From assembly GCA_964016885.1 (NCBI GenBank), contig OZ024758.1, positions 24,180,001 through 24,244,000 on the forward strand: DNA of 64,000 bases, read 5' to 3'. A model generated the notes under the pieces. That model saw only the letters and a program-made list of their open reading frames with translations, did no database searches and was not told the origin of the DNA. The DNA comes from Eledone cirrhosa (lineage: Eukaryota). The position numbers and the translations under genes are program-made. Below, piece by piece: positions 286-58,116 of the stretch (positions are counted from its first letter, which is position 1; each line of letters starts with the position of its first letter).

Positions 286-318
<33 letters not shown>

Positions 319-321
<3 letters not shown>

Positions 322-780
322 GATATTAATAAATGGACACTATATTTATAAAACCATATTTATTCTATTATATATATTTCAAGGGTACCAAAACTGTGGT
401 ACGCTCTCATCAGATAAAATACAAAGTTTGTTTTATAAATATTGACCTAAGTATTGACATATCCAGGAACGAGACCTTCACGGTTCAAGTATTACCTGGA
501 TAGTTAGGTAAAACTTGAAACTATCCAGGTAAAACTTGAACCATTAAGGTCTCATTCCTGGATATGTCAATATTTATAAAAAAAACTTTGGTATGCGCTC
601 ATCAGATAAAATACAAAGTTTTGGTACCCTTGAAATATATATAATAGAATAAATATGGTTTTATAAATATAGTGTCCATTTATTAATATCATTGATATTA
701 TACTCCAGAAAACTTGTCGAGTGCTTTGAATCTGTTATAAATATATTTGTTGGATTACCACCAAATTAAATATCCCTTTG

Positions 781-782
<2 letters not shown>
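319..782. mobile_element. Palindromic PLE-terminus element (inverted pLTR-like arms) in (TA)n
   Basis: Near-perfect arms 319-395/617-692 plus inner arms; similar to 55300-55415; (TA)n on both sides. Confidence 0.7.
362..420 (-). ncRNA. Minimal type I hammerhead ribozyme
   Basis: Minus strand: ATTTTAT-CTGATGA-GAGcGTACCA cagttt TGGTACcCTT-GAAA-TATAT-ATA-ATAGAAT; stem I 7 bp, intact core, AUA triplet, palindromic stem III. Confidence 0.8.
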
Positions 783-1292: not shown

Positions 1293-1404
1293 TATATATA
1301 TGTTTAACCGGCTGAGGTTGAAGGAACAGAATAGCGGTCGCCCTCGGGCCCTCGATTTTCAGCCCCATGGATTTTATCTATTACATTCACGTATTATATT
1401 TCGA

Positions 1405-1462
1405 ATACCTGATGATATCACCGGATTCATACGGAACCCGGTCATTGAAATGATCATAGTAT
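1405..1462 (+). ncRNA. Minimal type I hammerhead ribozyme in a PLE-like 3' end (about 1300-1525)
   Basis: ATAC-CTGATGA-tATcACCGG...CCGGTcATt-GAAA-TGATC-ATA-GTAT followed by AATAAA and (TA)n; first stem II pair is T-T. Confidence 0.7.
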
Positions 1463-1548
1463 AATAAACCTTTCAAGGATTTACACAAATCCAGCCTCCT
1501 GTCATTTCATTATAATATTATATTTATATATATATATATATATATATA

Positions 1549-1780
1549 TAGGAAATGAGTCAGGACCCCGACGGCTGAGCTCCGGCCGTTTCGACAGCTA
1601 GATCCGAACTAAGCCACCAATATCAGTATTACTGGTGGCTTAGTTCAGACCTAGCTGTCGAAACGGCCGGAGCTCAGCCGTCGAGGTCCTGACTTTTTTC
1701 CTATTATCCACTCTACTACCCCAAGTATTGAGTACTCTGGTGCGTTATGGTCCGCCTGGTATCTTACCACACTCTCTTTG

Positions 1781-1781: not shown

Positions 1782-1861
<80 letters not shown>

Positions 1862-1942
1862 AAAGGTAAACAGAAATAACACAATCGCTACAGTATATGG
1901 AAGGTATACATTAGGTTAACGCTTGATATAGCAGGAAGAGGG

Positions 1943-1978
1943 TCTTCACGTTTCGGACGCTAGTCCTTCATCAGAAGA
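1943..1978 (-). ncRNA. Penelope-type minimal hammerhead, probably inactive (GUG at the cleavage triplet)
   Basis: Minus strand TCTT-CTGATGA-aGGAC tagc GTCC-GAAAC-GTG-AAGA. Confidence 0.55.
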
Positions 1979-2133
1979 AAGAATGAGAAATAAAATAGAT
2001 TGAGGGGAGTGATTGATTACAGAGTCGGGCTAGATCGATACGGATTGAACCTTGAGCTGATCTATAGCGAAACGCGCGTCGCCAACCAATAAGCGTAATG
2101 AAGGAGTAACTGTTTGTCCTTGTTGTGTTGTAT

Positions 2134-15902: not shown

Positions 15903-16616
15903 TTCTGAGTTCAAGTTCCGCCGAGGTCAGCTTTGCCATTCATCCTTTCGAGGTTGATAAAAAAAAGTACCAGTTTAGTACTGGAGTCGATTCTTCCTCT
16001 ATATCTTTTTCTCATTTCCTCTCTCTCATTTTTTATCTTTCTCTGGAAGAAATCTGCTGTAGTCAGGCCTGGGGAGGGATGGACTCCGCCAGGCTTTAAA
16101 AAAAAATGCCCCAGAAACGCCGTATGTTAATACGGCGCTCCTACGACTATCAGGAGTTACGGGACCATACATACAACATGCATATAGTCCTGAAGAAGTT
16201 CAAAATATAAAACATGACTAAATTTGCTGAACATACCATACAGAAAACAACTGTAATAATGTTTAGCCATGTATGGTATGGTATGGTATGGTATGGACCG
16301 TAACTGAAGAGTCGCAGGGCCGCCATATTGACATACGATGTTTCTGGGGTATTTTAAGCCTGGCGGAGCCCATCCCCCTCTCCCCAGGTCTGAGTACAGC
16401 AGATTTCTTCCAGAGAAAGATAGAAAATGAGAGAGAGGGAGTGAGAAAGAGATATAGAGGAAGAATCTACCCCAGTACTAGACTGGTACTTTTTTTTATC
16501 GACCTCGAAAGGATGAAAGGCAAAGCTGACCTCGGCGGGATTTGAACTCAGAGAGTCGGAACGACTACCTCAAAGCATTCTACCTGACGTTCTAACGACT
16601 CTGCCAATTTGCCGCC
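15903..16616. mobile_element. Two long SINE family C copies tail-to-tail; tails end in (CCATA)n-like repeats
   Basis: SINE A-like head plus gattcttcctctatatc...ctggaagaaatctgc...cgccagg body; other copies at 14949-15196, 19250-19514, 29446-29690, 29820-29982. Confidence 0.8.
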
Positions 16617-16930
16617 TATATACAATGATATATAAGGTTTAAAAATTCTTTTATTGACCTCGAAAGGATGTAAGGCAAAGTTAACCTCGGCGTGATTTGA
16701 ACTCACAAAGCAGAGAGTCGGAATGAATAACAAAGCATTCTACCTGACGTTCTAACGACTGCCAATTTGCCGCCTATATACAATGATATATAAGGTTTAA
16801 AAATTCTTTTATTGACCTCGAAAGGATGTAAGGCAAAGTTAACCTCGGCGTGATTTGAACTCACAAAGCAGAGAGTCGGAATGAATAACAAAGCATTCTA
16901 CCTGACGCTCTAACGACTCTGCCAATTCGC
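16545..16930 (-). repeat. About 155-bp tandem duplication of SINE head plus flank
   Basis: Two near-identical ORFs at 16548 and 16703 in the track. Confidence 0.85.
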
Positions 16931-17134
16931 TGCCTACCTAGCCATGTACCAGTTCTCAATACCAGCCATGGTTGAATTTACCGAACATACCATACCAGAA
17001 AACAACTGTAATAATTGTTTCTACTTTTGGCACAAGGCCAGCAATTATCCCAGTCCTTAATTGGTACTTTATTTTATAGATCCCGTAAGAATGAAAGACA
17101 AAGCTAACCACGGCATAATGTTTATAGATTATCG

Positions 17135-26749: not shown

Positions 26750-27522
26750 GTTTCTATTTTTGGCACAAGGCCAGAAATTATCACAGTGTATTACTGGTAC
26801 TTTATTTTATCGACCCCGTAAGGCAAAGTTAACCTCGGTGGGATTTGAACTCACACCATAAAAGGCCATAACTCTTTGCTACAAATGATGGCTTCAAAAC
26901 CCTTACCGATACTGCCAATCTACTATGATATAATTGTTTCTACGTTTGGCACAGGGCCAGCAATTACCCAGTACATTACTGGTACTTTATTTTATCGACC
27001 CCATAAGGATGAAAGGCAAAGTTAACCTCGGCGCGATTTGAACTCAGAAATGGCAAGGGCCGTAACTATGCGTCAAAGCAAGGCGTCCGGCCCTCTACCG
27101 ATACTGCCAATTCACCGGCAATTGATATTATAATTGTTTCTACTTTAGGCACAAGGCCAGCAAATACCCAGTGCATTACTGGTACTTTATTTTATCGACC
27201 CCTGTAAGGATGAAAGGCAAAGTCAACCTCGGCGGGATTTGAACTCGGATCGTACAGGGACGTAGCTATGCTGGAAAGCATGGCGTCCGACGCTCTACCG
27301 ATACTGCTAATCCACCAATAATTGATATTATAATGGCGGTGAATTGGCAGTATCGGTAAAGGGTCGGACGCCTTGCTTTGCAGCATAGCTACGTCCCTGT
27401 ACGATCCGAGTTCAAATCCCGCCGAGGTTGACTTTGCCTTTCATCCTTACAGGGGTCGATAAAATAAAGTACCAGTAATGCACTGGGTATTTGCTGGCCT
27501 TGTGCCTAAAGTAGAAACAATT
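26750..27522. mobile_element. SINE A cluster ending in a head-to-head inverted pair (27131-27316 / 27335-27522)
   Basis: Family matches; 15-bp duplication aattgatattataat at 27120 and 27320. Confidence 0.85.
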
Positions 27523-33413: not shown

Positions 33414-33615
33414 ATAGGAAAAAGTATGACCCCCGACGGCAGAGCTCAAACCGTTTCGACGGCTATTTCTGGACTCCAGAAATAGCCGTTGAAACGGCTT
33501 GAGCTCTGCCGTTGGGGGGGGGGTCATACTTTTTCCTATTACCCACTCTACTACACTAAGTATTGAGTACTTTGGTGCGTTATGGTCCATCTGGTTCCTT
33601 ACCACAATTCCTTCG

Positions 33616-33617
<2 letters not shown>
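33414..33617 (+). mobile_element. Fold-back mini-element of the same family as 1549-1781
   Basis: Palindrome 33415-33538; ACTC-N16-GAGTACT at 33545-33571; shared tail tggtgcgttatggtcc. Confidence 0.7.
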
Positions 33618-33797: not shown

Positions 33798-33839
<42 letters not shown>

Positions 33840-33842
<3 letters not shown>

Positions 33843-33983
33843 ATATAGAAAAGCTTCTACAGGACTAGAACCGTTTCATTCGTGAGTAATCATCAGGATT
33901 TATTTATATATATATATATATATATTTAATATAGAAAAGCTTCTACAGGACTAGAACTGTTTCATTCGTGAGAAATCATCAGG

Positions 33984-34014
<31 letters not shown>

Positions 34015-34076
34015 TAATATAGAAAAGCTTCTACAGGACTAGAACTGTTTCATTCGTGAGAAATCATCAGGATTTA
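33840..34076 (-). repeat. Three tandem 86-88-bp units, each with a hammerhead-like core, separated by (TA)n
   Basis: Minus strand CCTGATGA-tt(a/t)ctcacgaat-GAAAC-(g/a)gttcta-GTC. Confidence 0.7.
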
Positions 34077-34883
34077 TATATATATATATAATTCTTTCAA
34101 TACATTTTCAATAGTTTAAATCATGGAGAATGTTATGTAGCTTCTTAAACGGATTAACTAGCTGGTGTAAAGATAAATATTACAGATAACAACTCACGAA
34201 TTTCAAGAGATAACAAGTATAGGATATAAAAAAATGTAGTTCTACAAAGGTGTTTTCTGAATCTTAAGTACTACGTATGAGGGCTTGACACTATCTCAAG
34301 AACCAAACGCTTCACTAAAATTAAATTTCGTAAGAAATTATTTATTAAAATGGCCTTCTATTAACCCTTAACTATCTTAGAGTTTCTGAGGACACTGTCA
34401 CAACGACACTCTGAAGGAGAAATAGAGGAGTGGAAAGAGGAAGGGGGGAGGGGGGGAGAAAAAAGTAGAAGAAAAAGAAGAAAAAGAAGAAAAAGAAGAA
34501 AAGACGAAAAAGAAAAGGGAAAAGAAGGAAAAGAAAAAGGAAAAGGAAAAAGAAGAAAAAGGAAAAAGGAAAAAGGAAAAGGAAAAAGGAAAAAATAAAA
34601 AGGAAAAGGAAAAATCAAAAGAAGAAAAGGAAAAGGAAAAAAGGAAAAGGGAAAATGGAAAAAGAAGGAAAAGAAAAAGATGAAAAAGAATTAAAAGAAA
34701 AAAGAAGAGGGAAGAATAAGGAGAAGAACATTAACAACAATCAGTTTTCAAACCAACTGTAATTTCCAGAGGTACAAGTTGATATAATTTGGTATTAACC
34801 CTTTAACATTTACATTACTCTATATTTACTATTGTATTTTCACTGTAAAGGCTTTATTTCACATAATTATCTCACATCGTTGA

Positions 34884-35063
34884 TTGGCAGTATCGGTAGA
34901 GGGTCGGACGCCATGCTTTCCAGCATAGAGTTACGGCCCTTGCCATTCTGAGTTCAAATCCCGCCGAGGTTAACTTTGCCTTTCATCCTTACGGGGTCGA
35001 TAAAATAAAGTACCAGTAATGTACTGAGTATTTGCTGGCCTTGTGCGAAAAATAGAAACAATT
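34884..35063 (+). mobile_element. SINE A
   Basis: Family match. Confidence 0.85.
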
Positions 35064-35249
35064 ATATCAAATCTATGAGATTTTGATGTTAGTTACTTTG
35101 AGAACAATACCTTAACATAAATATGAGTGGCTGGTTAATTAACTGGGGTTTTATTGTGTCTCCTGCGTGGTTAGTTGTAGTTATGGCTGCTGTTTTAGGC
35201 ACTGTAGTTGAGTCTTTAACTTAATATAACTTAATACTACTACTACTAT

Positions 35250-35940
35250 TACCCAAACCATCAACATAAAAAACAACAGCATCAACCACCACAACAATAC
35301 CAACCACAAACACCAACCACTACCAACCACCACAACAACACCAACCACCACAACACCAGCAACACCAACCACCACAATACCAACAACACCAACAACACCA
35401 ACCAACAACACCAACCAACACCCACCACAACACCAACCCCAACAACCAACAACACCAACCAACACCAACACCACCAACCAACACCCACCACACCAACAAC
35501 ACCAACACCACCACCACCAACCACCACAACACCAACAACACCAACCACCACAACAACACCAACAACACCAACCACCACCACAACACCAACCACCACAACA
35601 ACACCAACCAACACCAATCACCAACAACCACCACACCAACCACCACCACAACACCAACCACCGCAACACCAACAACCACCACACCAACCACCACAATACC
35701 AACCAACAACCAACCACCACCACACCAACCACTACCAACAACCAACACACCAACAACACCAACCACCACAACACCAACAACCCCAACCAACACCAACACC
35801 AATCACCAACAACCACCACACCAACCACCACCACAACAACACCAACCACCGCAACACCAACAACCAACACACCAACAACCACCACACCAACCAACACCAC
35901 CACACCAACCACCAACAACCACCACACCAACCACCACCGC
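35250..35940. repeat. CAA/CAC low-complexity tract
   Basis: Direct inspection. Confidence 0.95.
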
Positions 35941-36149
35941 TTACGACCCTCTCAGGAGTAAGTGATCAAAGGAGGTAAATGATGTTATAGTTGATTGAAT
36001 TTCTCACAGTATATATCTGGTAATTACGCTAGTTACGAACGAATGAAAGACAAAATGACCTCGGTGGGATTGAAACCTCAATTCTAGTGACGTGCTGATC
36101 TTTATACAATAAAGAATTTAGTCCACTATATATATATATGTATATATAT

Positions 36150-36336
36150 AATAGGTTAGTATCGTAAAAGAGGATAGAAATAAGAGTTATAAGGAGGTGC
36201 GATACAGAATATTACATGCCTTTAAAACTTTGCCTTTAATATCTGCCTCCGACGAGTCCCATTGGGCGAAACATGTGTAAGAGCTATATAAAGATATGTT
36301 TTAACGGCTTGTAACTCTTTCATTAATTCTTTTGCG
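36150..36336 (+). mobile_element. TA-embedded PLE-terminus-like element with mutated hammerhead
   Basis: CCGACGA-GTCCC att GGGC-GAAAC-ATGT-GTA at 36249-36279; weak outer inverted arms. Confidence 0.45.
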
Positions 36337-36371
<35 letters not shown>

Positions 36372-36450
36372 TACATAAAATATATATATATATATATAAA
36401 TAAAATGTGTGTGTGTGAGTACATATTTATTCGGAATATAATATTAAAGG

Positions 36451-36492
<42 letters not shown>

Positions 36493-36633
36493 TAAAATAA
36501 CATATTAAAGTTTAAGCAAGGAATCTCTGCTTTCACCCTTAACGGGATCTTCTGAAACTAAAAAAGTCAATCTGCAAACGCAGAAGTGGATAATTCAAAA
36601 AACGTTGCAACCGGAGGAAGACAGGAAGACGAT

Positions 36634-36678
<45 letters not shown>

Positions 36679-36793
36679 AATAAATCCTTTAATATAAATA
36701 AATACACACACACACACATTATTTTATAATATATATATATATATAATAAATAAATCCTTTAATATAAATAAATACACACACACACATTTATTT

Positions 36794-36825
<32 letters not shown>

Positions 36826-36951
36826 TTTATTTAATATATATATATGTATACACACATTTATTTATTATTTATTTAATATATATATATATATTTATTTATG
36901 TATTTCTCTATTTACTTATTCTATTCATCTATTTATTTTATACACACACGC

Positions 36952-36995
<44 letters not shown>

Positions 36996-37114
36996 GTATT
37001 TAATATATATATATATTATATATTTCTTTATTTATTTATGTATTTCTCTATTTACTTATTCTATTCATCTATTTATTTTATACACACACGCAACACACAC
37101 ACACAATTTATTTA

Positions 37115-37147
<33 letters not shown>

Positions 37148-37208
37148 TTATTTATTTATTTATGTATTTCTCTATTTACTTATTATTCTATTCATCTATT
37201 TATTATAG

Positions 37209-37388
37209 TTTTCGAGAAGCCATGTAAAAGAAGCCGAAGAAACAACTGGCCGAATTGTAGTGATCGTGTGTGATGGAGCACAAGGTTCATGTGGTCGGCT
37301 CCTGGGAATTAGTGATGAATGCATACAGCATCCTTGTAATACGTACGGCGCCATTGCTAGTCTGGAGAGAAACTGTGAGAGACAGGAG
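37209..37388 (+). CDS. Coding exon with flavoprotein DG fingerprint (VVIVCDGAQGSCGRLLG)
   Basis: Acceptor tattatag|TTT, donor GAG|GTAGGT, 180 nt phase 0/0; resembles the hhhGADGxxSxxRxxLG motif of flavin monooxygenases. Confidence 0.85.
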
Positions 37389-38758
37389 GTAGGTAGAATT
37401 ATTGACAATGTTTTTTTGTACTACTTCATAACAACAACAACAGTGACATAGAAAAGAGTACCACAGAAGAGTGAAACTACTATTAAAACATTTATCGTCA
37501 AGGCCAGCAATTTGTGAAGAAAGGTCATTATATCTACCCCGGTAGGTTAATGATACTGTATTTTATCGAACCCGAAAGGATGAAAGGCAAAGTAGACCTT
37601 GGCGGGATTTGAGCTCAGAATGTAAAGTGCCGGAATATATGCTGCAAAGGATTTTCTCCGAGACTCTACAGATTCTGTCAATCCACTGCCCTCCGAAGAC
37701 GAATTCTTTTAATTCGTTTCTGAAATGCAATGTTGTAATGTTACACCTCCCATCGTATCCTTTCATTGCTATAATCAGTTTCAGCTTTCTTGTTGATGAC
37801 CCCTATCTTCAGATCACTTATAACTATTAAACAAAAGATAGCTTTAATCTGCCTCAGTTTCTGTTTCAAGATTTCTTTCAGAACTTTTCTTGTTGGTCTA
37901 CTTTTGAAGAGACTGCCTCATCTTTATAATAATCGTGATATTCTCATTTCACTAGATTCTTCTGGTATTAAGTATTTAACTCAAACGCTTTTAATCTGTG
38001 ATTTTCAAAAGCATTTCTTGTTGATGAAGTTTCTAAAGTTGAAAGTCACCCTCTAAGACACTTAAACTGAATAGTCTCTGTCTTACTGATCTATTGCTTT
38101 CTTAATGTTCTCTTGAAAGACAGAAGTGGTTTGGTAGTATTCTTATATTAGCATTGAAGTTGATAGCTATATTGATAACTACTTCAGCATTTCCGCTGTC
38201 ATTATTTCTTAAATATTGAACATTAAATTAGTAACAAAGCTTTCTCGTTGAAGTTTATGCGCTAATTATTAGAAACGCCAATCAGAATTTGACAGTCCTG
38301 TTGCAGGTCAAACGTTAGATACTACTTCATATTATATTGTATAACCCTTTAGTATTCACATTATTTTATATATATACTATTATATTTTCATGGTAAAGGC
38401 TTTACCTCGCATAATTATCTCACATAATATCGAATCTATGAGATTTTGAAAGTATTTATTTTGAGAACACTACCTTAACATCAGTATGAGTGGCCAGTTA
38501 CAGCCAGTTTCTACAGAAAGAGGTAGAGAATTATGGCAGGTTTTGGCCGGTTTGAACATTAAAGAGATAAAGTTACTAATTAAATGTAAGTTAAGATAAC
38601 CAAATGTACCTGTGACCATAAATATAAACATTTTATAATCTGATCACAGAAAGTAGGGATTCTGTGGACAGTTTACTTTCACAAAAGTGAACATATAAGG
38701 TTTATTGTGTCTATATATATTTTTTATGTAATTATTGATTTTTACTTGTGTTCTTCAG

Positions 38759-38956
38759 TTTCCGATGGCAGAAAAGAGAATCCATCAACTAATATTTGAT
38801 CTCACCTCCTATGGAGTTGATTCTCTTGACGAGACCTTCACTCCCGGCTTCAGTTTAAAACTCTTTGGCAGTAATAGGCACCGCTACATGACTCTTGTGA
38901 TACCGAAATGTGAGTCCAAGTGTGTAAAAGCCTTGCGCGTTATATTAGATCGTTCG
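38759..38956 (+). CDS. Coding exon FPMAEKRIHQ...RVILDRS of the same gene
   Basis: Strong acceptor tgtgttcttcag, canonical donor TCG|GTAAGT, 198 nt open, phase 0/0. Confidence 0.85.
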
Positions 38957-39011
38957 GTAAGTAGCCATCATATTGTTTCATCTACAGTGCTTTCATCTAC
39001 AGTGCTGTCAT

Positions 39012-39470
39012 CACATAGCTTCCTCTACAGTGACGTCATCTACAATGGTGTCATCATATAGCTTCCTCTACAGTGACGTCATCTACAATGGTGTCATCAC
39101 ATAGCTTCCTCTACAGTGACGTCATCTACAATGGTGTCACCATATAGCTTCCTCTACAGTGACGTCATCTACAATGGTGTCATCATATAGCTTCCGCTAC
39201 AGTGACGTCATCTACAATGGTGTCATCACATAGCTTCCTCTACAATGACGTCATCTACAATGGTGTCATCATATAGCTTCCGCTACAGTGACGTCATCTA
39301 CAATGGTGTCATCATATAGCTTCCTCTACAGTGACGTCATCTACAATGGTGTCATCACATAGCTTCCTCTACAATGACGTCATCTACAATGGTGTCATCA
39401 TAAAGCTTCCTCTACAGTGACGTCATCTACAATGGTGTCATCACATAGCTTCCTCTACAGTGATGTCATC
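39012..39470. repeat. 43-bp minisatellite with TGACGTCA in each unit
   Basis: 10 intact TGACGTCA at 43-bp spacing from 39031 to 39418. Confidence 0.95.
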
Positions 39471-40170
39471 ACAACCTTGTTGAGAAAAATACACCACAAA
39501 AATCAATAAAAAAATAATACAGACATGATCTCTGATTTTGTTTCAGATTGATAAGATGTATTTCTCTTACTTTGATATAGTTTGTTTTATACGCCATATG
39601 GCGAGTGTGAAAGTGTAGAAATAAGGTTTATATTCGAGAGAGAAAGACTTTTGGCTTATAAACGCTAACTTCACATCGTCACGTACATTATAATTATAAT
39701 CAGTGGGGAAGAAGTATCACCAAAGTAGATATAGTTACGTTGTACCGGTGTAGAGGTTTCAGATTGATCCCTGCTTCACTTACTTTACTTCTCGGTAACT
39801 TGAAACCGTGTTCAGATTACCGGGAGATAGATTGAAATCGATTTTAAATTAACCCGAACAGTAGCTTGAGGGTAATTTCATCCTTTCCTCTTCCATTTTT
39901 GATCACCCCTCGAATCATTCCTCAATGTCCTTCGGCATTGGTGGGATTTACCGCTGTAGTAATTTCTTTTCTATATAAATATATTTCGTTCGTATTTGAA
40001 GTGCATAAATATAATTTACGAAGAGCACAGGAATAATTTCAAACCAAGTTTAGGCTACCCTGAGGGATAATATGGAAGCAATTTCAGAATACCGGGAGGT
40101 AAGTTGAAATGGTAGTAGCACAGTTTGAAGTCTTTACACCGGGCTGTCATGGTACATTGAAACTGTATAG

Positions 40171-40528
40171 CAGAGGTTCTCAAAATGGGCGCTACCGACC
40201 CACCCCCCACCCGACACACACACACAAACAGAGGTGGGGGATCTAAGAAGGTCCTGGGAGCGCTGGGGCCTAACGGGGCGCTAGAGATGATATAATAGTA
40301 TATTAAATATCAAATGATACATATATATATATAACTATATATATAAGTATAGTAAAATAAAAAATATATAATATTTATTTATACATAGTATATGTTATAT
40401 AAATTATTATATATAAATTAACGAGTTATACATTATGTAGGCAGGTCTCTCTGGAAATAGGGGTAGGGGCGCTGTGGGTATTACATGGCCGTGGGTATTA
40501 CGTGGCCCCAACGGTTTGAGAATCTCTG
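40171..40528. mobile_element. hAT Charlie-type MITE
   Basis: TIRs CAGAGGTTCTCAAA / TTTGAGAATCTCTG. Confidence 0.75.
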
Positions 40529-40567
40529 GCATATAACACCTGAATGTTAAACTCCAACGTTCATAAA

Positions 40568-41527
40568 CCATTCTTTGATGCATAGAGTTACGGCCCTTGC
40601 CATTCTGAGTTCAAATCCCGCCGAGGTTAACTTTGCCTTTCATCCTTACGGGGTCGATAAAATAAAGTACCAGTAATGTACTGGGTAATTGCTGGCCTTG
40701 TGCCAAAAGTAGAAACAATTATTTAGTATAGAGCGGTGAATTGGCAGTATCGGTAGAGGGTTGGACACCATTCTTTGATGCATAGAGTTACGACCCCTGC
40801 CATTCTGAGTTCAAATCCCGCCGAGGTTAACTTTGCCTTTCATCCTTACGGGGGTCGATAAAATAAAGTACCAGTAATGTACTGGGTAATTGCTGGCCTT
40901 GTGCCAAAAGTAGAAACAATTATTTAGTATAGAGCGGTGAATTGGCAGTATCGGTAGAGGGTTGGACACCATTCTTTGATGCATAGAGTTACGGCCCCTG
41001 CCATTCTGAGTTCAAATCCCGCCGAGGTTAACTTTGCCTTTCATCCTTACGGGGTCGATAAAATAAAGTACCAGTAATGTACTGGGTAATTGCTGGCCTT
41101 GTGCCAAAAGTAGAAACAATTATTTAGTATAGAGCGGTGAATTGGCAGTATCGGTAGAGGGTTGGACACCATTCTTTGATGCATAGAGTTACGACCCCTG
41201 CCATTCTGAGTTCAAATCCCGCCGAGGTTAACTTTGCCTTTCATCCTTACGGGGGTCGATAAAATAAAGTACCAGTAATGTACTGGGTAATTGCTGGCCT
41301 TGTGCCAAAAGTAGAAACAATTATTTAGTATAGAGCGGTGAATTGGCAGTATCGGTAGAGGGTTGGACACCATTCTTTGATGCATAGAGTTACGACCCCT
41401 ACCATTCTGAGTTCAAATCCCGCCGAGGTTAACTTTGCCTTTCATCCTTACGGGGTCGATAAAATAAAGTACCAGTAATGTACTGGGTAATTGCTGGCCT
41501 TGTGCCAAAAGTAGAAACAATTATTTA
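40568..41527 (+). repeat. Head-to-tail array of five SINE A units (200-201-bp period)
   Basis: Junction ttatttagtatagagcggtg repeats at 40721, 40922, 41122, 41323. Confidence 0.95.
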
Positions 41528-43428
41528 GAATAGAGTAACAGAATTAGCGCAGAGGGTCGAAGAACAGATGATTAACGATACTTATATATTTTTACATCTG
41601 CTTACCGCTCAAGATAGTCGAGTAGATAAGCTTTTATCTGCATTTTATTTCAAAACCGCTGAACGCATCTCGGTATGAAGTTGTACAGTCATCCTCAGTT
41701 CACCGATCTATCGAAAATAAATACCCGACTTTCTAGAAAAGTTACACGTGACTGGCTGAGAATCAGTCTATTGGAATATTATTCTTTGATCTGTGTAACG
41801 TCATGAAAATATTCCTTTATATATGTTGATCTTTACACAAACATCCGGGAAACTGCTAATCAATTTACTGATTTCAAGCTTCGTTTAAACTCCAGAGAAC
41901 ATAGCTGGCATCGCCATAAATATGATTTCAAACTCATAATCTAATTTGCATAGTGTTATTAGATTGACAACTGTTCAAATGAATGTCTACACGTGCACAG
42001 TATGAAAACTAAAGAATTCAATATTCTGAAATATATATGTGTATATGGTAGAAAAAAAAATTAGCATTGATAAAGAATAAATCTTGGATAAAAATATCAC
42101 AAGTTCTCAGTAAAAGGCATATAGTTTATGATTCGTTAGCCATCATCAGTTCTCACTTTCATAACAGTTTCACGTATAAGCCAGTCTAGATAATTTTAGG
42201 TAGCTGTAAGTCACAGTTTTTCGGTAGAATGGTGTGATTGTAGTCTTAGTAAGACTATATTTTAAATATATATACTTTGGTATACATTTTTTTAAAGTAT
42301 ATACACACACACACACACATACACACATACATATATATATATGTGGGTGGGTGTAGATGTGCATACATGATGGCTGCCCCCTCGTTATCGAGTATGGCCA
42401 TTGCACGATATACCATTATTAATAATTTTTAATTAATTCTATCGTGCAATGCCTGTGCGTGAAGATATTTTTTAAAGTGAGGAAAGACTGTGCACTGAGC
42501 CAATCCCACTCTCTGAGCGACAGTAGCTATAACCCGAAAAGAAAAAAAAGATCAACATCATCGGTAACTACTGAGCCGCAGGTTTTATATCGGTGTTGCC
42601 TTCTCCTAGAAGAATGCCCTGAGAAAGGCTAGAGAGTCCTTCACTCCCAGAGATGTGCATATATACATACATATATAAATATTTATACATACACACATAC
42701 ATAAGTCTTGTTACTTATGGAGTTTCACTTGTATAGTCACAGGACCGTAAGATGGAACTCCAGAGTAATGTATGTATGTATGTCAGGTCGCTCTTGAGTG
42801 TTACTGGTAACATGTTAACCAGTACAACCTGTCTCATGGTCGGGTCGTCAGCGACTAAACTGGCAACCCCACCAAGCTTGATTGATGAGGAGGGTGATAT
42901 TTGGACACCCTGCGGGATGAAATACAAGACCCGGCAAAGGGCGGAAGAACTCAGCAGAGTCAACGGCCATCCAAATAGTAGTTATTTTTTTTTACCTGGG
43001 AGTGAAAGGCCCCCAGTTGTTGTCACACCACCTTTCTAAGAGATGGAAACTGAAAAAAACCTGCGGCTTCGGAAGCATCCGATGATGTTGACCAGTTCTC
43101 CTTTTCGGGTAGTGTTTTCGATGCTCAGAGAGTGGCATTGGTCAAGTTCAATGCCTTTCCCCACTTACAAAACCTTCAAAGCACAAGCATTGCTTGTTCA
43201 GGGTATGTTACAGATTCGTGTGGCTGGCCGTAGCCTAAAAGTGCACCAAACTCTATAATCTGACAAGCGATTGCAATATTCTTAGCAAAGTTTGCAGCCA
43301 TCATGTACATATGTATGCATGTACACATATATGTACGTATATATGTATGCAGCTAGGCACCAAATACAACCAACTATCCTCTCGCTTCGTTGAGTCCGAT
43401 TAAATAAATAAATTGTTATTTATTTCAG

Positions 43429-43645
43429 ATGATGAGAAATATCTTCACAAAATGTTTTAACACATTTCGGTTCGAAAATGAAACCAAACTTGCAGAATCT
43501 GAAGCACTGAAAAACATGAAATTTAGTCCCAGACTTTTTGAAATAAAAATGTTTCAACGGCAAGAAAATGTAGCATATTTTTCTGAACCTGACATTTTTA
43601 TTTTGGCGGAGGGTGACGCTGCTATGTGTTATAATTTCAGTACAG
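43429..43645 (+). CDS. Coding exon MMRNIFTK...ILAEGDAAMCYNFST(G), first half of the GD FAD-binding motif
   Basis: Acceptor ttatttatttcag, donor CAG|GTAAGA, 217 nt ending in phase 1; GDAA motif. Confidence 0.9.
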
Positions 43646-44265
43646 GTAAGATGTTTATTTGTTTAATTCATTGTGATTGAAGTAGTTACATATCTCTCCG
43701 CCTTTGCTGAAGCTAAATATTATAGAATTCCACTTATGTTTATCAGCTGGTGAAACTCATTTTCAGCCGGCCGGCATAAATAAAACATTTGTATTGGTTT
43801 TCTGACATAGGAATGCAAATGCGCTTCATCAGCTCATATGTAGATATGCCACCATACCAGTATACGTATACACTAAGCCTGAACACAAAGGAACCAAACT
43901 CCCACCGCCTCCATCACTCCCGTTCTCCCCCATCTCTCTTGTGATTAGAGCTAGCCTAGTATGCTAAATACCAAATCATACATTGTAGGGCTAACGAAAG
44001 GCACTACATACCCAGGTGCTGGCATTAAAGATACTTATTCCACAGACTTTGACATAGAAAGAAGATGGAAGATAGCAATATAGACAACAGCAACATAGAT
44101 TTGATAAATGTGACTGAACATGGAAGAACCGAACTCGCAGTGTCACCGCCTCCATCTCTCTGTATTATGAGCAAATGTTGTCCCATGCTTATTCTGTTCT
44201 TGTCATTGCTGCTGGCTTATCTGTGGGGTTCAGTAGAAGTTCGGTCAAAAAACCTGACAGTTGAT

Positions 44266-47130
44266 GATGTAATCTCCCAATGACAGCTAGTTGATGTAAT
44301 CTCTCAATGACAGCTAGTACATGTAATCTCCCAATGACAGCTAGTTGATGTAATCTCCCAATGACAGCTAGTACATGTAATCTCCCAATGACAGCTAGTT
44401 GATGTAATCTCCCAATGACAGCTAGTTGATGTAATCTCCCAATGACAGCTAGTACATGTAATCTCCCAATGACAGCTAGTTGATGTAATCTCTCAATGAC
44501 AGCTAGTACATGTAATCTCCCAATGACAGCTAGTACATGTAATCTCCCAATGACAGCTAGTTGATGTAATCTCCCAATGACAGCTAGTTGATGTAATCTC
44601 CCAATGACAGCTAGTTGATGTAATCTCCCAATGACAGCTAGTTGATGTAATCTCCCAATGACAGCTAGTTGATGTAATCTCCCAATGACAGCTAGTTGAT
44701 GTAATCTCCCAATGACAGCTAGTACATGTAATCTCCCAATGACAGCTAGTACATGTAATCTCCCAATGACAGCTAGTTGATGTAATCTCCCAATGACAGC
44801 TAGTTGATGTAATCTCCCAATGACAGCTAGTTGATGTAATCTCTCAATGACAGCTAGTACATGTAATCTCCCAATGACAGCTAGTTGATGTAATCTCCCA
44901 ATGACGGCTAGTACATGTAATCTCTCAATGACAGCTAGTACATGTAATCTCCCAATGACAGCTAGTGGATGTAATCTCCCAATGACAGCTAGTACATGTA
45001 ATCTCCCAATGACAGCTAGTTGATGTAATCTCCCAATGACAGCTAGTTGATGTAATCTCCCAATGACAGCTAGTTGATGTAATCTCCCAATGACGGCTAG
45101 TACATGTAATCTCTCAATGACAGCTAGTACATGTAATCTCCCAATGACAGCTAGATGATGTAATCTCCCAATGACAGCTAGATGATGTAATCTCCCAATG
45201 ACAGCTAGTACATGTAATCTCCCAATGACAGCTAGTTGATGTAATCTCCCAATGACAGCTAGTTGATGTAATCTCCCAATGACAGCTAGTTGATGTAATC
45301 TCCCAATGACGGCTAGTACATGTAATCTCTCAATGACAGCTAGTACATGTAATCTCCCAATGACAGCTAGTTGATGTAATCTCCCAATGACAGCTAGTAC
45401 ATGTAATCTCCCAATGACAGCTAGTTGATGTAATCTCCCAATGACAGCTAGTACATGTAATCTCCCAATGACAGCTAGTTGATGTAATCTCTCAATGACA
45501 GCTAGTACATGTAATCTCCCAATGACAGCTAGTTGATGTAATCTCCCAATGACAGCTAGTACATGTAATCTCCCAATGACAGCTAGTTGATGTAATCTCC
45601 CAATGACAGCAAGTACATGTAATCTCCCAATGACAGCTAGTTGATGTAATCTCCCAATGACAGCTAGTACATGTAATCTCCCAATGACAGCTAGTACATG
45701 TAATCTCCCAATGACAGCTAGTACATGTAATCTCCCAATGACAGCTAGTACATGTAATCTCCCAATGACAGCTAGTACATGTAATCTCCCAATGACAGCT
45801 AGTACATGTAATCTCCCAATGACAGCTAGTTGATGTAATCTCCCAATGACAGCTAGTACATGTAATCTCCCAATGACAGCTAGTTGATGTAATCTCCCAA
45901 TGACAGCAAGTACATGTAATCTCCCAATGACAGCTAGTTGATGTAATCTCCCAATGACAGCTAGTACATGTAATCTCCCAATGACAGCTAGTACATGTAA
46001 TCTCCCAATGACAGCTAGTACATGTAATCTCCCAATGACAGCTAGTTGATGTAATCTCCCAATGACAGCAAGTACATGTAATCTCCCAATGACAGCTAGT
46101 TGATGTAATCTCCCAATGACAGCTAGTACATGTAATCTCCCAATGACAGCTAGTTGATGTAATCTCCCAATGACAGCTAGTACATGTAATCTCCCAATGA
46201 CAGCTAGTACATGTAATCTCCCAATGACAGCTAGTACATGTAATCTCCCAATGACAGCTAGTTGATGTAATCTCCCAATGACGGCTAGTTGATGTAATCT
46301 CCCAATGACAGCTAGTACATGTAATCTCCCAATGACAGCTAGTTGATGTAATCTCCCAATGACAGCTAGTACATGTAATCTCCCAATGACAGCTAGTACA
46401 TGTAATCTCTCAATGACAGCTAGTTGATGTAATCTCCCAATGACAGCTAGTACATGTAATCTCCCAATGACAGCTAGTACATGTAATCTCCCAATGACAG
46501 CTAGTTGATGTAATCTCCCAATGACAGCTAGTTGATGTAATCTCCCAATGACAGCTAGTTGATGTAATCTCCCAATGACAGCTAGTTGATGTAATCTCCC
46601 AATGACAGCTAGTTGATGTAATCTCCCAATGACAGCTAGTACATGTAATCTCCCAATGACAGCTAGTTGGTGTAATCTCCCAATGACTGCTAGTTGATGT
46701 AATCTCCCAATGACAGCTAGTACATGTAATCTCCCAATGACAGCTAGTTGATGTAATCTCCCAATGACAGCTAGTTGATGTAATCTCCCAATGACAGCTA
46801 GTACATGTAATCTCCCAATGACAGCTAGTTGATGTAATCTCCCAATGACAGCTAGTACATGTAATCTCCCAATGACAGCTAGTACATGTAATCTCCCAAT
46901 GACAGCTAGTTGATGTAATCTCCCAATGACAGCTAGTTGATGTAATCTCCCAATGACAGCTAGTACATGTAATCTCCCAATGACAGCTAGTACATGTAAT
47001 CTCCCAATGACAGCTAGTACATGTAATCTCCCAATGACAGCTAGTTCATGTAATCTCCCAATGACAGCTAGTACATGTAATCTCCCAATGACAGCTAGTA
47101 CATGTAATCTCCCAATGACAGCTAGTTGAT
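44266..47130. repeat. 27-bp minisatellite, about 106 units, two main variants
   Basis: atgtaatctcccaatgacagctagt[tg|ac]. Confidence 0.97.
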
Positions 47131-50375: not shown

Positions 50376-53300
50376 CTACATCTCATTTACATAATGGCAT
50401 AAAGTTGAGGGTCCTACAATAGTTACTCAAATAAATTAAATAAGAACTGACTGAGTTTTACTGCTGCGTTTCTGTTTCTTCAGGAAAGCTACTCGTAATA
50501 AGGCCAATGTTTTATCCAGCGATAATTTTTCTCTGGTCTGCTTGTATATGTAAATTTGTGCGACTTCCGTCCGCCCGTCACACAGTGTGTGTGTGTGTGT
50601 GTAAAAGGAAGGAAGGGGATGGTGAAAAAACTATAGCCAAACAGTGACAGGCATTACATTTGCCTCGCTGAGTGTGTGTTAAATGTATATGTGCATTTGT
50701 GTGAGTTTATGTCTATGAATGTGTATTTCTGTAAGTGTGTAAGTGTTTGCGCGTTTATATTTATATACTCATACTTATAAAAGTATGCATATGCACATAC
50801 ACACACACATACATATACACACACGCATCAGCGTGTTGAAAATAATCCTACTATACTATAATTCGAAGTGACGAATTAGATATAATCTATTTATAATAAT
50901 TTATATTGATACTATTTAAATCTTAGCTATTACTTTATAATTTAATTCAAAGAAAATTGTCATATAGGTCATACAATCTCCTGTGTTTTCTTTTTTTTTT
51001 ACATTGTGTCCAGGGAAAATATCAATATTAAAATATTTTCTTAAGTAGACATCAAAAGGTCACTTTGTTGCTGGTACTTATATCACTTATATCATCGACT
51101 CTGTCCGGAGAAAGAGAAAGTCTATTCTGATCTATTAGAGACACTTGGCCAACACACGGCCAATGCTCGGCCAACACACAGCCAACACACGGCCAACGCT
51201 CGGCCAACACTTAAACAGTTGACCAACGCTGAACGAGCCAATGAAAGAACCTCTATGTCGGGATTTCCCAGACTTCTTCAAACACTATTTCGTTCAGAAA
51301 CTTTTGGGGACGCCCTAAAGTCTAATACTGTTATATGGTTGTAATATAAATATACTCCTCTACCTTTTTTACATGGAACCCCAAATACTCCTTTGTAGAA
51401 CCCACTTTGGGAACCACTGCTCTATGTGGGCGTTCAACCTGCTAAATATAGCATCAAAATCTCCTTCGAAACAAACCATAAAGTTTTGACAATGTGGTCT
51501 TAGACATTAGACACACTGTCCGAGTAAAAGATGGGATGGTCACGGATAGAATACATATAATCATAGAAATATTCAATCAGAAAATGACAAGGGACTAATC
51601 AGCAACAACCAATAATTAACCTACTTTATTTTTATGTAAAAGTCAACCTGGAATTCACGATTTACTCTATTACATGGTCCAGCCAACAGGTTGAGGCCAT
51701 GCTGGGGCACTGCTATTTCCGCTACACTTTCTGGCCATTGATGCAAAAGGAAGTCTGTTGCTTCCGCCCTTATTTGCGCTTCGCTTCATGCTGTTACTGT
51801 TTTTAATTGTATATTTATACTGTTTTGTCAATTTTCTGAGCTTTATCAAACAAAATTTCAGATTAAATGACAATTGATAAATTCTGTACTGAATTCTATC
51901 CCACTGAGTCAATAAAATACTAATATTTTATTAATACCGTGCTGTAAATATATGATAGGTCGATGAAGTCGCCCAGCTGTTGGTGGACAATTGTATGAGA
52001 GGAGTTTAATGTGAAATACACATTTGTACACACAGTTTAAAAACAAATCGAACAACAAAACAGGCTGAAACTTCGGCGATTCTGAACTGAAACTGATTGG
52101 CCTGTTATGTTCTGCATAGTTATATCAACTCGGGCTATGTAGGGTTAAGATTTCTACCCAGAAACACTACAGATAATCGATTTAAGCAGGTTTGAACTAA
52201 TGCCTCATATATAGATTGAAACTTCAACTCTTGACTCGTCTGCAAACATGGGTCAATTCGTCGCAAGATCTGGGTCAACGAGGAACTTTGCCTTGTAGAT
52301 TATTAGGTATACTGATACCATAAAAAGCAACCAAATCTCTTTTCATATCATTCGAATAATCTAGCCCCCAAAAGACGAGTTGGTCTCAACTAGAATGATT
52401 TTATCATGAATCTACTCGATAAGGGTTGATCTGGGGTTGAACAACAATAAACTTATTTACCTCTTCATTATACGAACAGTATTATAACTTCAGAAAAATT
52501 TAATGTTTAAAATAGAGGTTTGGCACCTGCATTGAGGATGAAATGACAGACACCCTGTAATTTCTTTATTAGTCATATAACAATTGAAGACATTGTAACT
52601 AGAAATAAGGCCACTGAATACTCAGCTTTCCTGTTAATGGATGTTTAACTAACTTTTAGATAATGGGACTGTACACACAAACACCTGATTATACGAAAAA
52701 TATTACGGCCTCAGAAAAAGTTTAACATGTTTTTGTATCCACAGTGAGGATGTTTGAGCTACTGTCACGTTTCAAAAACAGACACCATGTAATTTCTTAA
52801 TGGAAGACGATATAACTAGAAATAAGACTACTTAAGTTGTGTTAATAACCTTTTTTAGATGAGAAGGCCGGGCTTAAAAATCTCATTCTAAATGTGGCCT
52901 CACATATATCTTGTACAATATAACAAATGTTTCTTAAATAACCAAACGAATTCTTAAATAATATGTGGGCTTTACAGGGATGATGGAGTACTAACTACAA
53001 ATTAATAGATACTTCGAATAAGTGAACAAATCGATGTTTCTAATAGTAATCTTCAAGTCCTTTCGAAAAGAGAGAATCTAAGACGTTTAACGGAACGAAA
53101 CCGTACATTGATTAGATTACTTCACCAAGCTTCTACAATACGTACATTCTACTCAATTAGTGAGAGAGGAAGTTGGCAGCTGTGTAATTGTCAAGAATGA
53201 TATAATTTCCTAATATTGTCAGAGCTGACAATAGCAATTTACTGCATCGTTAATTATTTATGACGGTTCTAATACACTTCTGGTGCTTTCTATTCATGAA

Positions 53301-53499
53301 GCAAATCGAAGCTATATGCTCAAGATTTCATGACATTATATTTTTCTATTGATATTTATTCCTGTTTTTCCTAAGCTGACGTTATCACAGCCAACACATG
53401 TCGGTTGGTAACGTTACGCAACAGTCAACTTATGTGATTCTGTAGTCGTTGGGTTTTGATTGTTTCTTGTCCATAATCGGATTTCAGTTAAGATACTTA

Positions 53500-54068
53500 A
53501 GGAATAGTTAATGGGAATAACAATAATAATAGTTTAAACACGAATAATAGTAGAACACCTTTAAATAAAAATGTGAATAGTTTAAGGTCTGTAAATAACA
53601 TTGAGAAGAAATGTAATTGTAAAAGGAGGTTTGAATGTCCTTTACAAAATAATTGCCTTGACAAGAATCTAGGATATAAATGTACCATTAAGACAAATAA
53701 TAATATATATAACTACATAGGTGCAACTTCATCTAAATTTAAGGAACGTTGGTATAATCATTGACAATCTTTCAATAAACCAGATAAGAAATTTTCAACT
53801 TCACTTTCACAATTAGTATGGTCTTTAAAGGACAATAATATTAAATACTCCATCTCTTGGACGAAATTAAAGATTAAAGAATGCTGCTTCCTATCAGAAC
53901 TCAACTATTTCGCAAATTTGCAATCTTTGTAACCTTGAGATTCTATTGATAATTACAAATTATGATAATTTAATCAACAAAAAAAATGAATTATTTAGTA
54001 GTTGTCACCATCAAATTGGTAAAACTTTCCAGGCAATGTATAAGTTTCGAAAAAATATTGACAATTAA
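53500..54068 (+). pseudogene. PLE GIY-YIG endonuclease with Cys-rich linker
   Basis: CNCKRRFECPLQNNCL..GYKC..YIGATSSKFKERWYNH*QSF..STSLSQLVWSLK..ISW..CNLCNLE..LINKKNELFSSCHH; one TGA and a 7-bp ATTAAAG duplication frameshift. Confidence 0.85.
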
Positions 54069-55299
54069 TAATTTAAATATATATATATAAGTTTTGCCTT
54101 ATTGTGGTAATAATTTATTGATATTTATATGTATTAGAATAATTTCATTAAGAGTCTCGTTATCCTATGCTTTGATTAGGACAGTTCAATATTTAATTAG
54201 ACATCAATTATGATATATACAATAGATAATTTATGGCTTTCGAAATATCGCTGGACGAGAGAGAGAGAGAGAGATGTTTTAAATGTTTGTATATGGTGAA
54301 TGAGTTATCTTCCTTTTGTTTACATTGTCCATAAATTTTCTTTTCTTTTTGACTAACATATTAAATATGAAATATGTAGATTAATAATATATAGACTATC
54401 ATTAAAAGGAAACTATATATCAAAATAAGTAAATACAGAACTAAATATAACCTTTCATTAAATTAATGAAATAAAATTTTTGAGAGTAAATATAACTACA
54501 GTTTAATCCTAGGAATTAAATGAAAATTAAAGACTAGTAAAGATTTTATAAAGAGAATATCTTAATTAAATTAAATAATTTGGGTAATAAATGATCTAAA
54601 TATATTATATGTATTGACGGTGATATACGCATGATATTATATTTTAATATATATTTAATAATTATTTAAATACGCTTCAAAGATGAATTATTTTAAAGTT
54701 GTAATAAAATATTTATAGAATATTTTACTTTAAAATTAAAAATTATAATAATCTATAAGTTAAATTAAATTATATAAATTTATGATTAAACTAAATATGT
54801 GATTGCTATAGAATGTAATCTATATTGATTAATTTTGATACAATATATAAGTATAATTAGGTAAAGCATTATCAAATACAAGAGATATTCTATTGTTTAT
54901 GTGAATAGAATAGATGTCTTATTTGATCTAACATTTGAAAACAACAGTTTTTTTTATCCCCCTCTATTCGATGTTCCCTTATTTTTCTTTATTTTTCTTT
55001 AAATCCTTCCCCCTTTGTTCCCTTTTACTTTCCCCACACCTACCTCTTTTGTCATTATTCCTCTTTTCTTTTTTATATATTTCTTTTATTCATTCATCCA
55101 TTTATTTATCTATTTACGTATGTATTTATTTATGTATTTATTGCCTTTCCTCTTCTTTACTATATCTCTAATTTACTATACGTCCGTTTCTTCTGTAAGT
55201 TTATCTTATTATTTGTGGTTTAAAAACGTTGAGATTTGATGAAATAAATCATTGCCAATACTGGAATTGAATAATCAAGACGATAGCAGTGTGTCATAT

Positions 55300-55363
55300 A
55301 TTTTGTCTGATGAGAACGTACTGAAAAAACAATAGAGTACCTTTGAAATATATATAATAAAGT
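55300..55363 (+). ncRNA. Minimal type I hammerhead ribozyme
   Basis: ATTTTGT-CTGATGA-GAAcGTACT loop AGTACcTTT-GAAA-TATAT-ATA-ATAAAGT; stem I 7 bp with G-U pairs, intact core. Confidence 0.8.
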
Positions 55364-55415
55364 TTATATTTTGATTATGAGAATATTTTTCATTTGTTAA
55401 CATTTTGAATAATAT

Positions 55416-57955
<2,540 letters not shown>

Positions 57956-58116
57956 TTTATAAATAAAAAAAAATAACAGGTCCATTCATGTTGACATCTC
58001 TTGCAAAACTTTTGGTGCTGGCAGTTTTGCTTTCTGTTTCGGTTTGTATTTTATTTTTCGCATTTTCTATAATATATATTATAAATTAATCGAATTATTT
58101 TCATTTTCTTTTACAG

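What the first reader, a model, noticed from the sequence alone, without database searches (positions are those of the whole stretch)
53500..55415. Naiad-like Penelope retroelement: GIY-YIG, long 3' region, hammerhead, then (TA)n target
Seen: a decayed GIY-YIG ORF with CxC..CPL..C and CxLC..E..CHH motifs, about 1.2 kb of AT-rich sequence, an intact-looking hammerhead, then a 2.5-kb (TA)n tract. Known: Penelope-like elements carry hammerheads in their pLTRs, and this Cys-rich GIY-YIG architecture is typical of Naiad-type PLEs. Inference: this is the autonomous-type partner of the many ribozyme-bearing mini-elements embedded in (TA)n across the window.
Basis: partly seen in the sequence, partly recalled or inferred. 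Interest (0 to 1): 0.75.

Follow-up and report, generated by a model that had tools for sequence, protein, structure and literature searches.

The report
Broken Hydra-type Penelope element, not Naiad
This is a broken, shortened copy of a known kind of jumping gene (Hydra-type Penelope, not the Naiad type first suggested), and its relatives carry two small RNA hairpins, shared with non-coding hitch-hiker repeats, that likely mark where copying starts.

Summary
Window 53505-55417 is the last 1.9 kb of a ~3.9-kb Penelope-like element with roughly 2,000 genomic candidates. Other copies continue upstream into a reverse transcriptase in the same frame, so the GIY-YIG domain (fold confirmed) is C-terminal. 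RWR, DKT, CxCX5C, CxxC/CxH, a canonical hammerhead and (TA)n targets match the Hydra clade. Naiads have an N-terminal nuclease. The TGA is decay, not selenocysteine. This copy is dead, and no intact copy of its family was found. The window's mini-elements are mixed: one is the truncated end of a sister coding family, others are non-coding. A younger Hydra family with intact 794-residue ORFs is the likelier current driver. Across six families, 3' ends fall at two fixed sites. Each site whose downstream sequence was seen (9 of 9) lies 2-5 bases before a covarying bulged hairpin, and 87 of 91 inverted insertions use one site at each end. The hairpin is also visible in published coral, sea-cucumber and copepod Hydra elements. 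This suggests twin priming on one RNA (untested). I found it independently; the scan had already noted it on other DNA (e1-8804728, e1-8668526).

The parts
53505..55417 (+). 5'-truncated copy (last 1.9 kb of ~3.9 kb) of a Hydra-clade Penelope-like element, family A
   Evidence: 91% identity to positions 2076-~4020 of a working majority of 20 copies plus the window; upstream 52950-53504 is single-copy
53505..54068 (+). End of the single ORF: Asn-rich RT-EN linker and GIY-YIG endonuclease, broken by TGA (53762) and a 7-nt duplication (~53866)
   Evidence: fold
53612..53638 (+). CxCX5C linker motif (Hydra-clade diagnostic)
   Evidence: PMC8557442 section 11
53919..54011 (+). CxxC..E and N..E..CxH motifs flanking the catalytic E and N (Hydra-clade diagnostic)
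54069..55306 (+). 1.24-kb AT-rich 3' UTR, conserved across copies
55296..55367 (+). Minimal type I hammerhead ribozyme, core intact, stems degraded, G10.1.U11.1 pair, palindromic (AU)4 stem III; predicted cut after 55356
55400..55417 (+). 'Short' 3' end, one of the family's two fixed ends; the 92-nt tail and both hairpins are absent from this copy
55412..57965 (.). 2,554-nt imperfect (TA)n tract, the insertion target
309..782 (.). Inverted short+long pair of sister Hydra family B (pLTR 72% identical to A; own ORF in L174, L175); carries hairpin 1 at about 700-720
1307..1519 (+). Short end of family D, a young 2,362-bp non-coding hammerhead element with both hairpins
33831..34075 (-). Three tandem short ends of hammerhead mini-family C (also an inverted pair at 63-221)
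1548..1780 (.). Palindromic mini-family F (also 33414-33616): inverted short+long pair with hairpin 1, no canonical hammerhead core seen

Best explanation
The stretch is a dead, 5'-truncated copy of a Hydra-clade Penelope-like retroelement, likely made by target-primed reverse transcription into a (TA)n tract from the first of two start sites that are predicted to be set by twin RNA hairpins. Shown from sequence: full copies are pLTR (hammerhead, short end, hairpin 1, long end, hairpin 2), a single RT-then-GIY-YIG ORF, a 1.24-kb 3' UTR and a second pLTR; insertions end in (TA)n at one of two sites 92 nt apart; each site ends in a TAT microhomology 2-5 nt before an RCTC-[stem-loop]-NN-GAGY hairpin; inverted insertions have one short and one long end. 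Inferred: the protein, probably a dimer, binds the two hairpins on one RNA, nicks both strands of (TA)n, and primes one cDNA at each site, giving the mirror-image insertion with a tail at one end. Inferred: because a hairpin lies just 3' of its own start site it is not copied into that end, so a lone short-ended copy like this one cannot be mobilised again, whereas any non-coding RNA that carries both hairpins (family D) can be moved in trans by whichever Hydra family is active, at present most likely family G.
For: Upstream continuation into RT in 29 of 29 other EN-selected copies; 5' pLTR with hammerhead before the ATG in L032, L033, L038; one reading frame with RLRWR, DKT, YRDD, CxCX5C, YIG, CxxC..E; hammerhead-to-hammerhead unit 3,881 nt. 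All match Hydra diagnostics (PMC8557442 section 11, Fig. S7 passages). GIY-YIG fold. Two fixed ends in six families. Long+short in 87 of 91 inverted pairs; 59 of 62 without family F, whose query forced one long end (binomial 9e-15 against 0.5); family A 14 of 15. Hairpin at 9 of 9 sites examined, 0-33 of 2,000 shuffles per site, kept in 140 of 163 tailed copies; all 35 cells paired with A-U/G-C and C-G/U-A swaps; G.U pairs occur on the sense strand. Family G was examined after the motif was written down (note, G) and has both hairpins. Five of six published new Hydra consensi show it by eye. In 7 of 59 pairs the long arm stops within 10 nt of the short site. Internal initiation at two sites, cutting of both strands and a predicted dimer were shown for the Poseidon element PAc (PMC11167929, parts 1-2 of 4 read).
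Against: No biochemistry and no RNA data. The motif was defined by eye on five families before the shuffles, so those counts are not independent. Four of 91 pairs break the rule. Loci were the best 40 hits per search, not a random sample, and some pairs may be two neighbouring insertions. PAc primes at a site without homology to the target, unlike the TAT match here. This copy has no (TA)n, inverted arm or microhomology at its 5' junction, so later deletion cannot be excluded. D shares no DNA or protein similarity with G or A beyond the hairpins, so its driver is assigned by age and signal only. No tree with labelled Hydra references was built.
Confidence: 0.72

Rival explanations
1. It is a Naiad: an N-terminal Cys-rich GIY-YIG followed by a lost or decayed RT, possibly a selenoprotein with a SECIS in the AT-rich region.
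For: (TA)n target, 3.9-kb length within the Naiad range of 3.4-4.4 kb, Naiads exist in Octopus (PMC8557442 File S1); earlier scan notes claim rearranged hammerheads in Naiads (untested here).
Against: RT lies upstream of EN in one frame; nothing coding follows EN; no CX2-5CxxC or CCHH, 0 of 150 homologues fit a Neptune/Naiad-type pattern; DKT not DKA; canonical hammerhead present; TGA is AGA in 24 of 30 copies and the working ORF has no in-frame TGA.
Confidence: 0.01
2. Hydra-clade element, but the two ends and the one-tailed inversion come from endonuclease cleavage of a DNA intermediate, with the conserved motif read as DNA by the nuclease rather than as an RNA hairpin by the RT.
For: Craig et al. 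attribute the tail to EN-mediated resolution (section 6, 15); PMC11167929 cites that the Drosophila virilis tail was needed for EN recognition of plasmid DNA. The outer four pairs are nearly invariant in sequence.
Against: Inner stem covaries freely, loops range from 4 to 51 nt, and G.U pairs fall on the sense strand; PAc tail ends coincide with RT start sites in vitro.
Confidence: 0.2
3. Family A itself is the autonomous driver of the window's mini-elements.
For: Shared target, two-end architecture and hairpin signal; C and F are as old as or older than A (median 10.3% and 5.9% against 2.8% divergence over the pre-end region), so A may have moved some of them in the past.
Against: B has its own ORF; D copies are 99-100% alike while no intact A ORF appears among 150 scored matches; A shares only short hairpin-sized matches with C, D and F; at least five other Hydra families are present (B, G, L176, L236/L237, L238).
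Confidence: 0.07

Closest known systems
Hydra clade of C-terminal EN+ Penelope-like elements, including Hydra-1_Obim of Octopus bimaculoides (Craig et al. 2021, PMC8557442; sections 6, 11, 12, 15, passages, supplement parts 2, 52, 53 and search passages read)
   Same: Single RT-EN ORF, RWK-type and DKT motifs, CxCX5C linker, CxxC and CxH around E and N, no CCHH, canonical minimal hammerhead, (TA)n target, inverted 5' copies with a tail at one end.
   Different: Unit of 3.9 kb with a 1.24-kb 3' UTR (published new members 2.1-2.6 kb); 92-nt tail against the 30-40 bp given for PLEs; Asn-rich linker; different hammerhead from Hydra-1_Obim, with G.U at 10.1-11.1; twin hairpins are not mentioned in the parts read.
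Naiad clade (same paper)
   Same: GIY-YIG with Cys-rich motif, (TA)n target, similar length.
   Different: Naiads have N-terminal EN, CX2-5CxxC plus CCHH, DKA, IFD and no canonical hammerhead; all tested features fail here.
PAc, Poseidon element of Anolis (Frangieh et al. 2024, PMC11167929; parts 1-2 of 4 read)
   Same: Two internal start sites bracket the tail; both target strands cut; dimer predicted; hammerhead upstream of the start sites.
   Different: PAc sites lie inside the ORF in one AC-rich stem-loop without target homology; here they lie in the 5' UTR, each before its own conserved hairpin and at a TAT microhomology.
Animal non-LTR retrozymes as non-autonomous PLE derivatives (bioRxiv 10.64898/2026.07.22.740005, part 1 of 5 read; minimal hammerheads PMC4209133, passages read)
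   Same: Non-coding hammerhead elements tied to PLE pLTRs (families C, D).
   Different: Family D is a 2.36-kb unit, and the link here is a short cis signal and shared end geometry, not pLTR homology.

Membership tests
Hydra-clade PLE | Single ORF, RT followed by C-terminal GIY-YIG EN | tested here: met
   (window copy holds only the EN end)
Hydra-clade PLE | N-terminal RWK motif and DKG changed to DKT | tested here: met
   RLRWR at residue 36, DKT at 123 of the working ORF
Hydra-clade PLE | CxCX5C linker; CxxC and CxH beside E and N; no CCHH | tested here: met
Hydra-clade PLE | Canonical hammerhead in pLTR | tested here: met
   cleavage not assayed
Hydra-clade PLE | Insertion into (TA)n | tested here: met
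   63 of 67 unique family-A terminal ends followed by TA repeats
Hydra-clade PLE | Generally shorter than 3 kb | tested here: not met
   3,881-nt unit; a typical rather than defining trait
Hydra-clade PLE | Groups with Hydra references in an RT tree | not tested
   published sequences were read by eye only
Naiad PLE | N-terminal EN, C-terminal RT | tested here: not met
Naiad PLE | CX2-5CxxC plus CCHH in EN; DKA | tested here: not met
Naiad PLE | No canonical hammerhead | tested here: not met
   canonical minimal hammerhead present
Naiad PLE (selenoprotein type) | Conserved in-frame UGA at Cys positions and a SECIS | tested here: not met
   TGA in 1 of 30 copies, at an Arg codon; SECISearch not available and not needed
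Neptune/Nematis/Poseidon PLE | CCHH in EN, CX2-5CxxC linker (Neptune, Nematis), DKG | tested here: not met

The most novel reading that the evidence does not exclude
Hydra-clade Penelope elements, from corals to this genome, choose their two reverse-transcription start points with two copies of one small bulged RNA hairpin; a dimer bound to both on a single RNA primes both strands of a cut (TA)n target, which explains the one-tailed mirror-image insertions, and the same two hairpins are sufficient to make unrelated non-coding RNAs mobile in trans.
Probability: 0.55. Interest if true: 0.72.

Novelty: new member of a known kind. Interest (0 to 1): 0.47.

Why it matters
The copy itself is an ordinary fossil. 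How Penelope-like elements, the closest mobile relatives of telomerase, pick their start site and form tails and inversions is stated as open in PMC8557442 (section 15) and PMC11167929. This genome supplies the parts for a direct test: a short covarying RNA signal at each of two start sites, a sharp one-long-one-short rule, a young family with intact ORFs, and a young non-coding passenger. It also shows the Hydra clade, described from few low-profile families, as a guild of at least six families here, with 34,000-47,000 first-look RT candidates.

Tried and rejected
Rfam: no hammerhead match, only microRNA-like noise on TA repeats. Pfam: nothing for EN, RT or the full ORF. PDB sequence search with the EN profile: 0 hits. 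Foldseek alone gave no E below 0.001. A fixed 5' end at 53505 (nearly all hits began there) was rejected: it is this copy's truncation point. Selenocysteine reading rejected. A 935-residue open frame was a family-A RT interrupted by another retroelement, and a 750-residue one belonged to a sister family. Searching six 8-mers of the hairpin's 3' arm in the paper's supplement showed hairpin context only in the Hydra file among 26 places shown, but line breaks and the few terms make this weak. One inverted pair at a locus edge (L225) was dropped before counting. Family E (window 1848-2008, 57969-58027) has a different hammerhead, one end only in 20 loci, and was left unassigned. Literature searches that did not turn up the twin hairpins or a one-long-one-short rule: (listings and abstract starts; only the four papers cited were opened). 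bioRxiv supplements were closed, and Repbase Hydra entries and the PAc supplement were not seen; they may bear on novelty.

Full report
Observation. The sequence shows what was described: a broken ORF with CxCX5C, YIG, CxxC..E and CxH motifs at 53505-54068, 1,238 nt at 22% GC, a hammerhead core at 55307-55356, and a 2,554-nt imperfect (TA)n tract. The ORF has a TGA at 53762 and a 7-nt duplication near 53866. Pfam, Rfam and a PDB sequence search find nothing. A model of the domain from copy L006 with 105 homologues (pLDDT 91.5) matches I-TevI at Z 9.5 and other GIY-YIG nucleases. The hammerhead is supported by compensatory changes between families A and B: 89.8% of cells pair, against 38-61% when partners are slid. 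In this copy the core is whole but stem I has lost 12 nt and the fold is no better than shuffles.

What it is. The EN stretch has 1,917 first-look candidates in the 3.0-Gb genome, 40 scored, best 94-95% identical; the hammerhead end has 2,430. All 29 other loci fetched continue upstream in family sequence, the window copy does not, and its upstream flank is single-copy. The upstream part encodes an RT in the same frame. Copies L032, L033 and L038 begin with a hammerhead-bearing pLTR before the ATG. A working majority of 20 copies plus the window gives one frame with RLRWR, DKT, YRDD and the EN motifs; its single stop lies at a homopolymer run that copy L022 reads through. The unit is 3,881 nt and copies are 3.1-10.7% from the majority, the window copy 4.8%. 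Of 29 EN-selected copies 24 reach the hammerhead end and 21 of these run into TA or ATC repeats. These are the features by which Craig et al. define the Hydra clade; Naiads have the reverse domain order and no canonical hammerhead. Among homologues, 49 of 49 with both parts have RT before EN and 0 of 150 fit a Neptune/Naiad-type pattern. The TGA is AGA in 24 of 30 copies.

The partner claim. I searched the genome with each ribozyme-like mini-element of the window. B (309-782) is the truncated, inverted end of a sister coding family, about 69% identical in protein. D (1307-1519) belongs to a 2,362-bp unit with no stop-free frame above 101 residues and no match to Hydra ORFs, with copies 99-100% alike. 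C and F loci show no Hydra ORF in 25 of 25 each. Family A has no intact ORF among 150 scored RT matches; six of the longest or closest were fetched and were fusions, sister families or broken. Family G, 43% identical to A, has 8 matches with an 808-residue open frame among 143 scored, 97.5-98.6% alike. So the clade, not this family, is the partner, and G is the best current driver by age. A may have moved older C or F copies.

Two ends and twin hairpins. Families A, B, C, D, F and G each end at two fixed sites 66-170 nt apart. In inverted insertions 87 of 91 have one short and one long end, 59 of 62 without F, 49 of 51 when both ends must touch TA, and 14 of 15 in family A; unpaired ends are mixed. 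One edge pair was dropped. At 9 of 9 sites examined a hairpin RCTC-[stem-loop]-NN-GAGY begins 2-5 nt after a TAT microhomology; shuffles give it 0-33 times in 2,000, and 140 of 163 tailed copies keep it. The second hairpin could be seen only in A, D and G, where full pLTRs were in hand. Outer and inner pairs covary. The motif was noted before G was examined, so G is an out-of-sample check. By eye it is present in Hydra-2_Amil, Hydra-1_Ajap (two copies), Hydra-2_Ajap, Hydra-1_Crog (one mismatch) and Hydra-1_Obim (one G.U); the Hydra-1_Amil consensus stops too early. Seven literature searches did not show it. After I had these results, two earlier scan notes proved to report the same hairpins on other DNA.

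How it likely works. Shown: anatomy, end positions, pairing rule, hairpin conservation. Established for the related PAc: internal initiation at two sites and cutting of both strands. Inferred: a dimer binds both hairpins on one RNA and primes each nicked TA strand at one site; the long arm often runs through, and in 7 of 59 pairs stops within 10 nt of the short site, a weak sign of collision on one template. The window copy began at the short site, stopped after 1.9 kb or lost its 5' part later, lacks both hairpins and RT, and cannot move. The main rival is that the nuclease reads the motif as DNA while resolving the intermediate.

Verdict. The interest lies in the testable start-site signal that its family and neighbours reveal.

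Noticed in passing
L223-L230 (for example L224:2548-4971:+): Young Hydra family G with intact 794-residue ORFs; its hammerhead has a CCGAAGA core and a stem II of about 90 nt. A candidate for in vitro work.
   Followed up: partly
L172:2749-5111; window 1307-1519: Family D, a 2,362-bp non-coding unit with internal repeats and a pyrimidine-rich block, about 1,000 candidates, near-identical copies.
   Followed up: partly
window 1848-2008 and 57969-58027 (- strand): Hammerhead family E, about 1,800 candidates, ends in TA/CA repeats at one site; several copies start near the same point about 370 nt upstream; no parent found.
   Followed up: partly
window 1548-1780 and 33414-33616: Palindromic family F, 4,247 candidates, obeys the two-end rule and has the hairpin but no canonical hammerhead core; longer upstream sequence in L185 and L191.
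   Followed up: partly
L031, L052, L125, L228 flanks: Different families often sit head to head in the same (TA)n tract, so these tracts act as shared landing pads.
   Followed up: no
L235:2073-4877 (- strand): A non-LTR RT element inserted in frame into a family-A RT gives a spurious 935-residue fusion ORF.
   Followed up: partly
L176:1-945: Another Penelope-like ORF with a CxxxxCxxC linker (Neptune-like by motif), so other PLE clades are present.
   Followed up: no
L236, L237, L238, L176:3358-4203: Further Hydra families, 40-76% identical to family A in protein.
   Followed up: partly
window 16494-16936, 26929-27334, 40567-41535: Tandem copies of an abundant ~200-bp SINE-like repeat that also interrupts many family-A copies; recalled as an octopus SINE.
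   Followed up: no
window 52950-53504: Single-copy flank; a minus-strand frame faintly recalls a decayed DDE transposase by eye, not tested.
   Followed up: no
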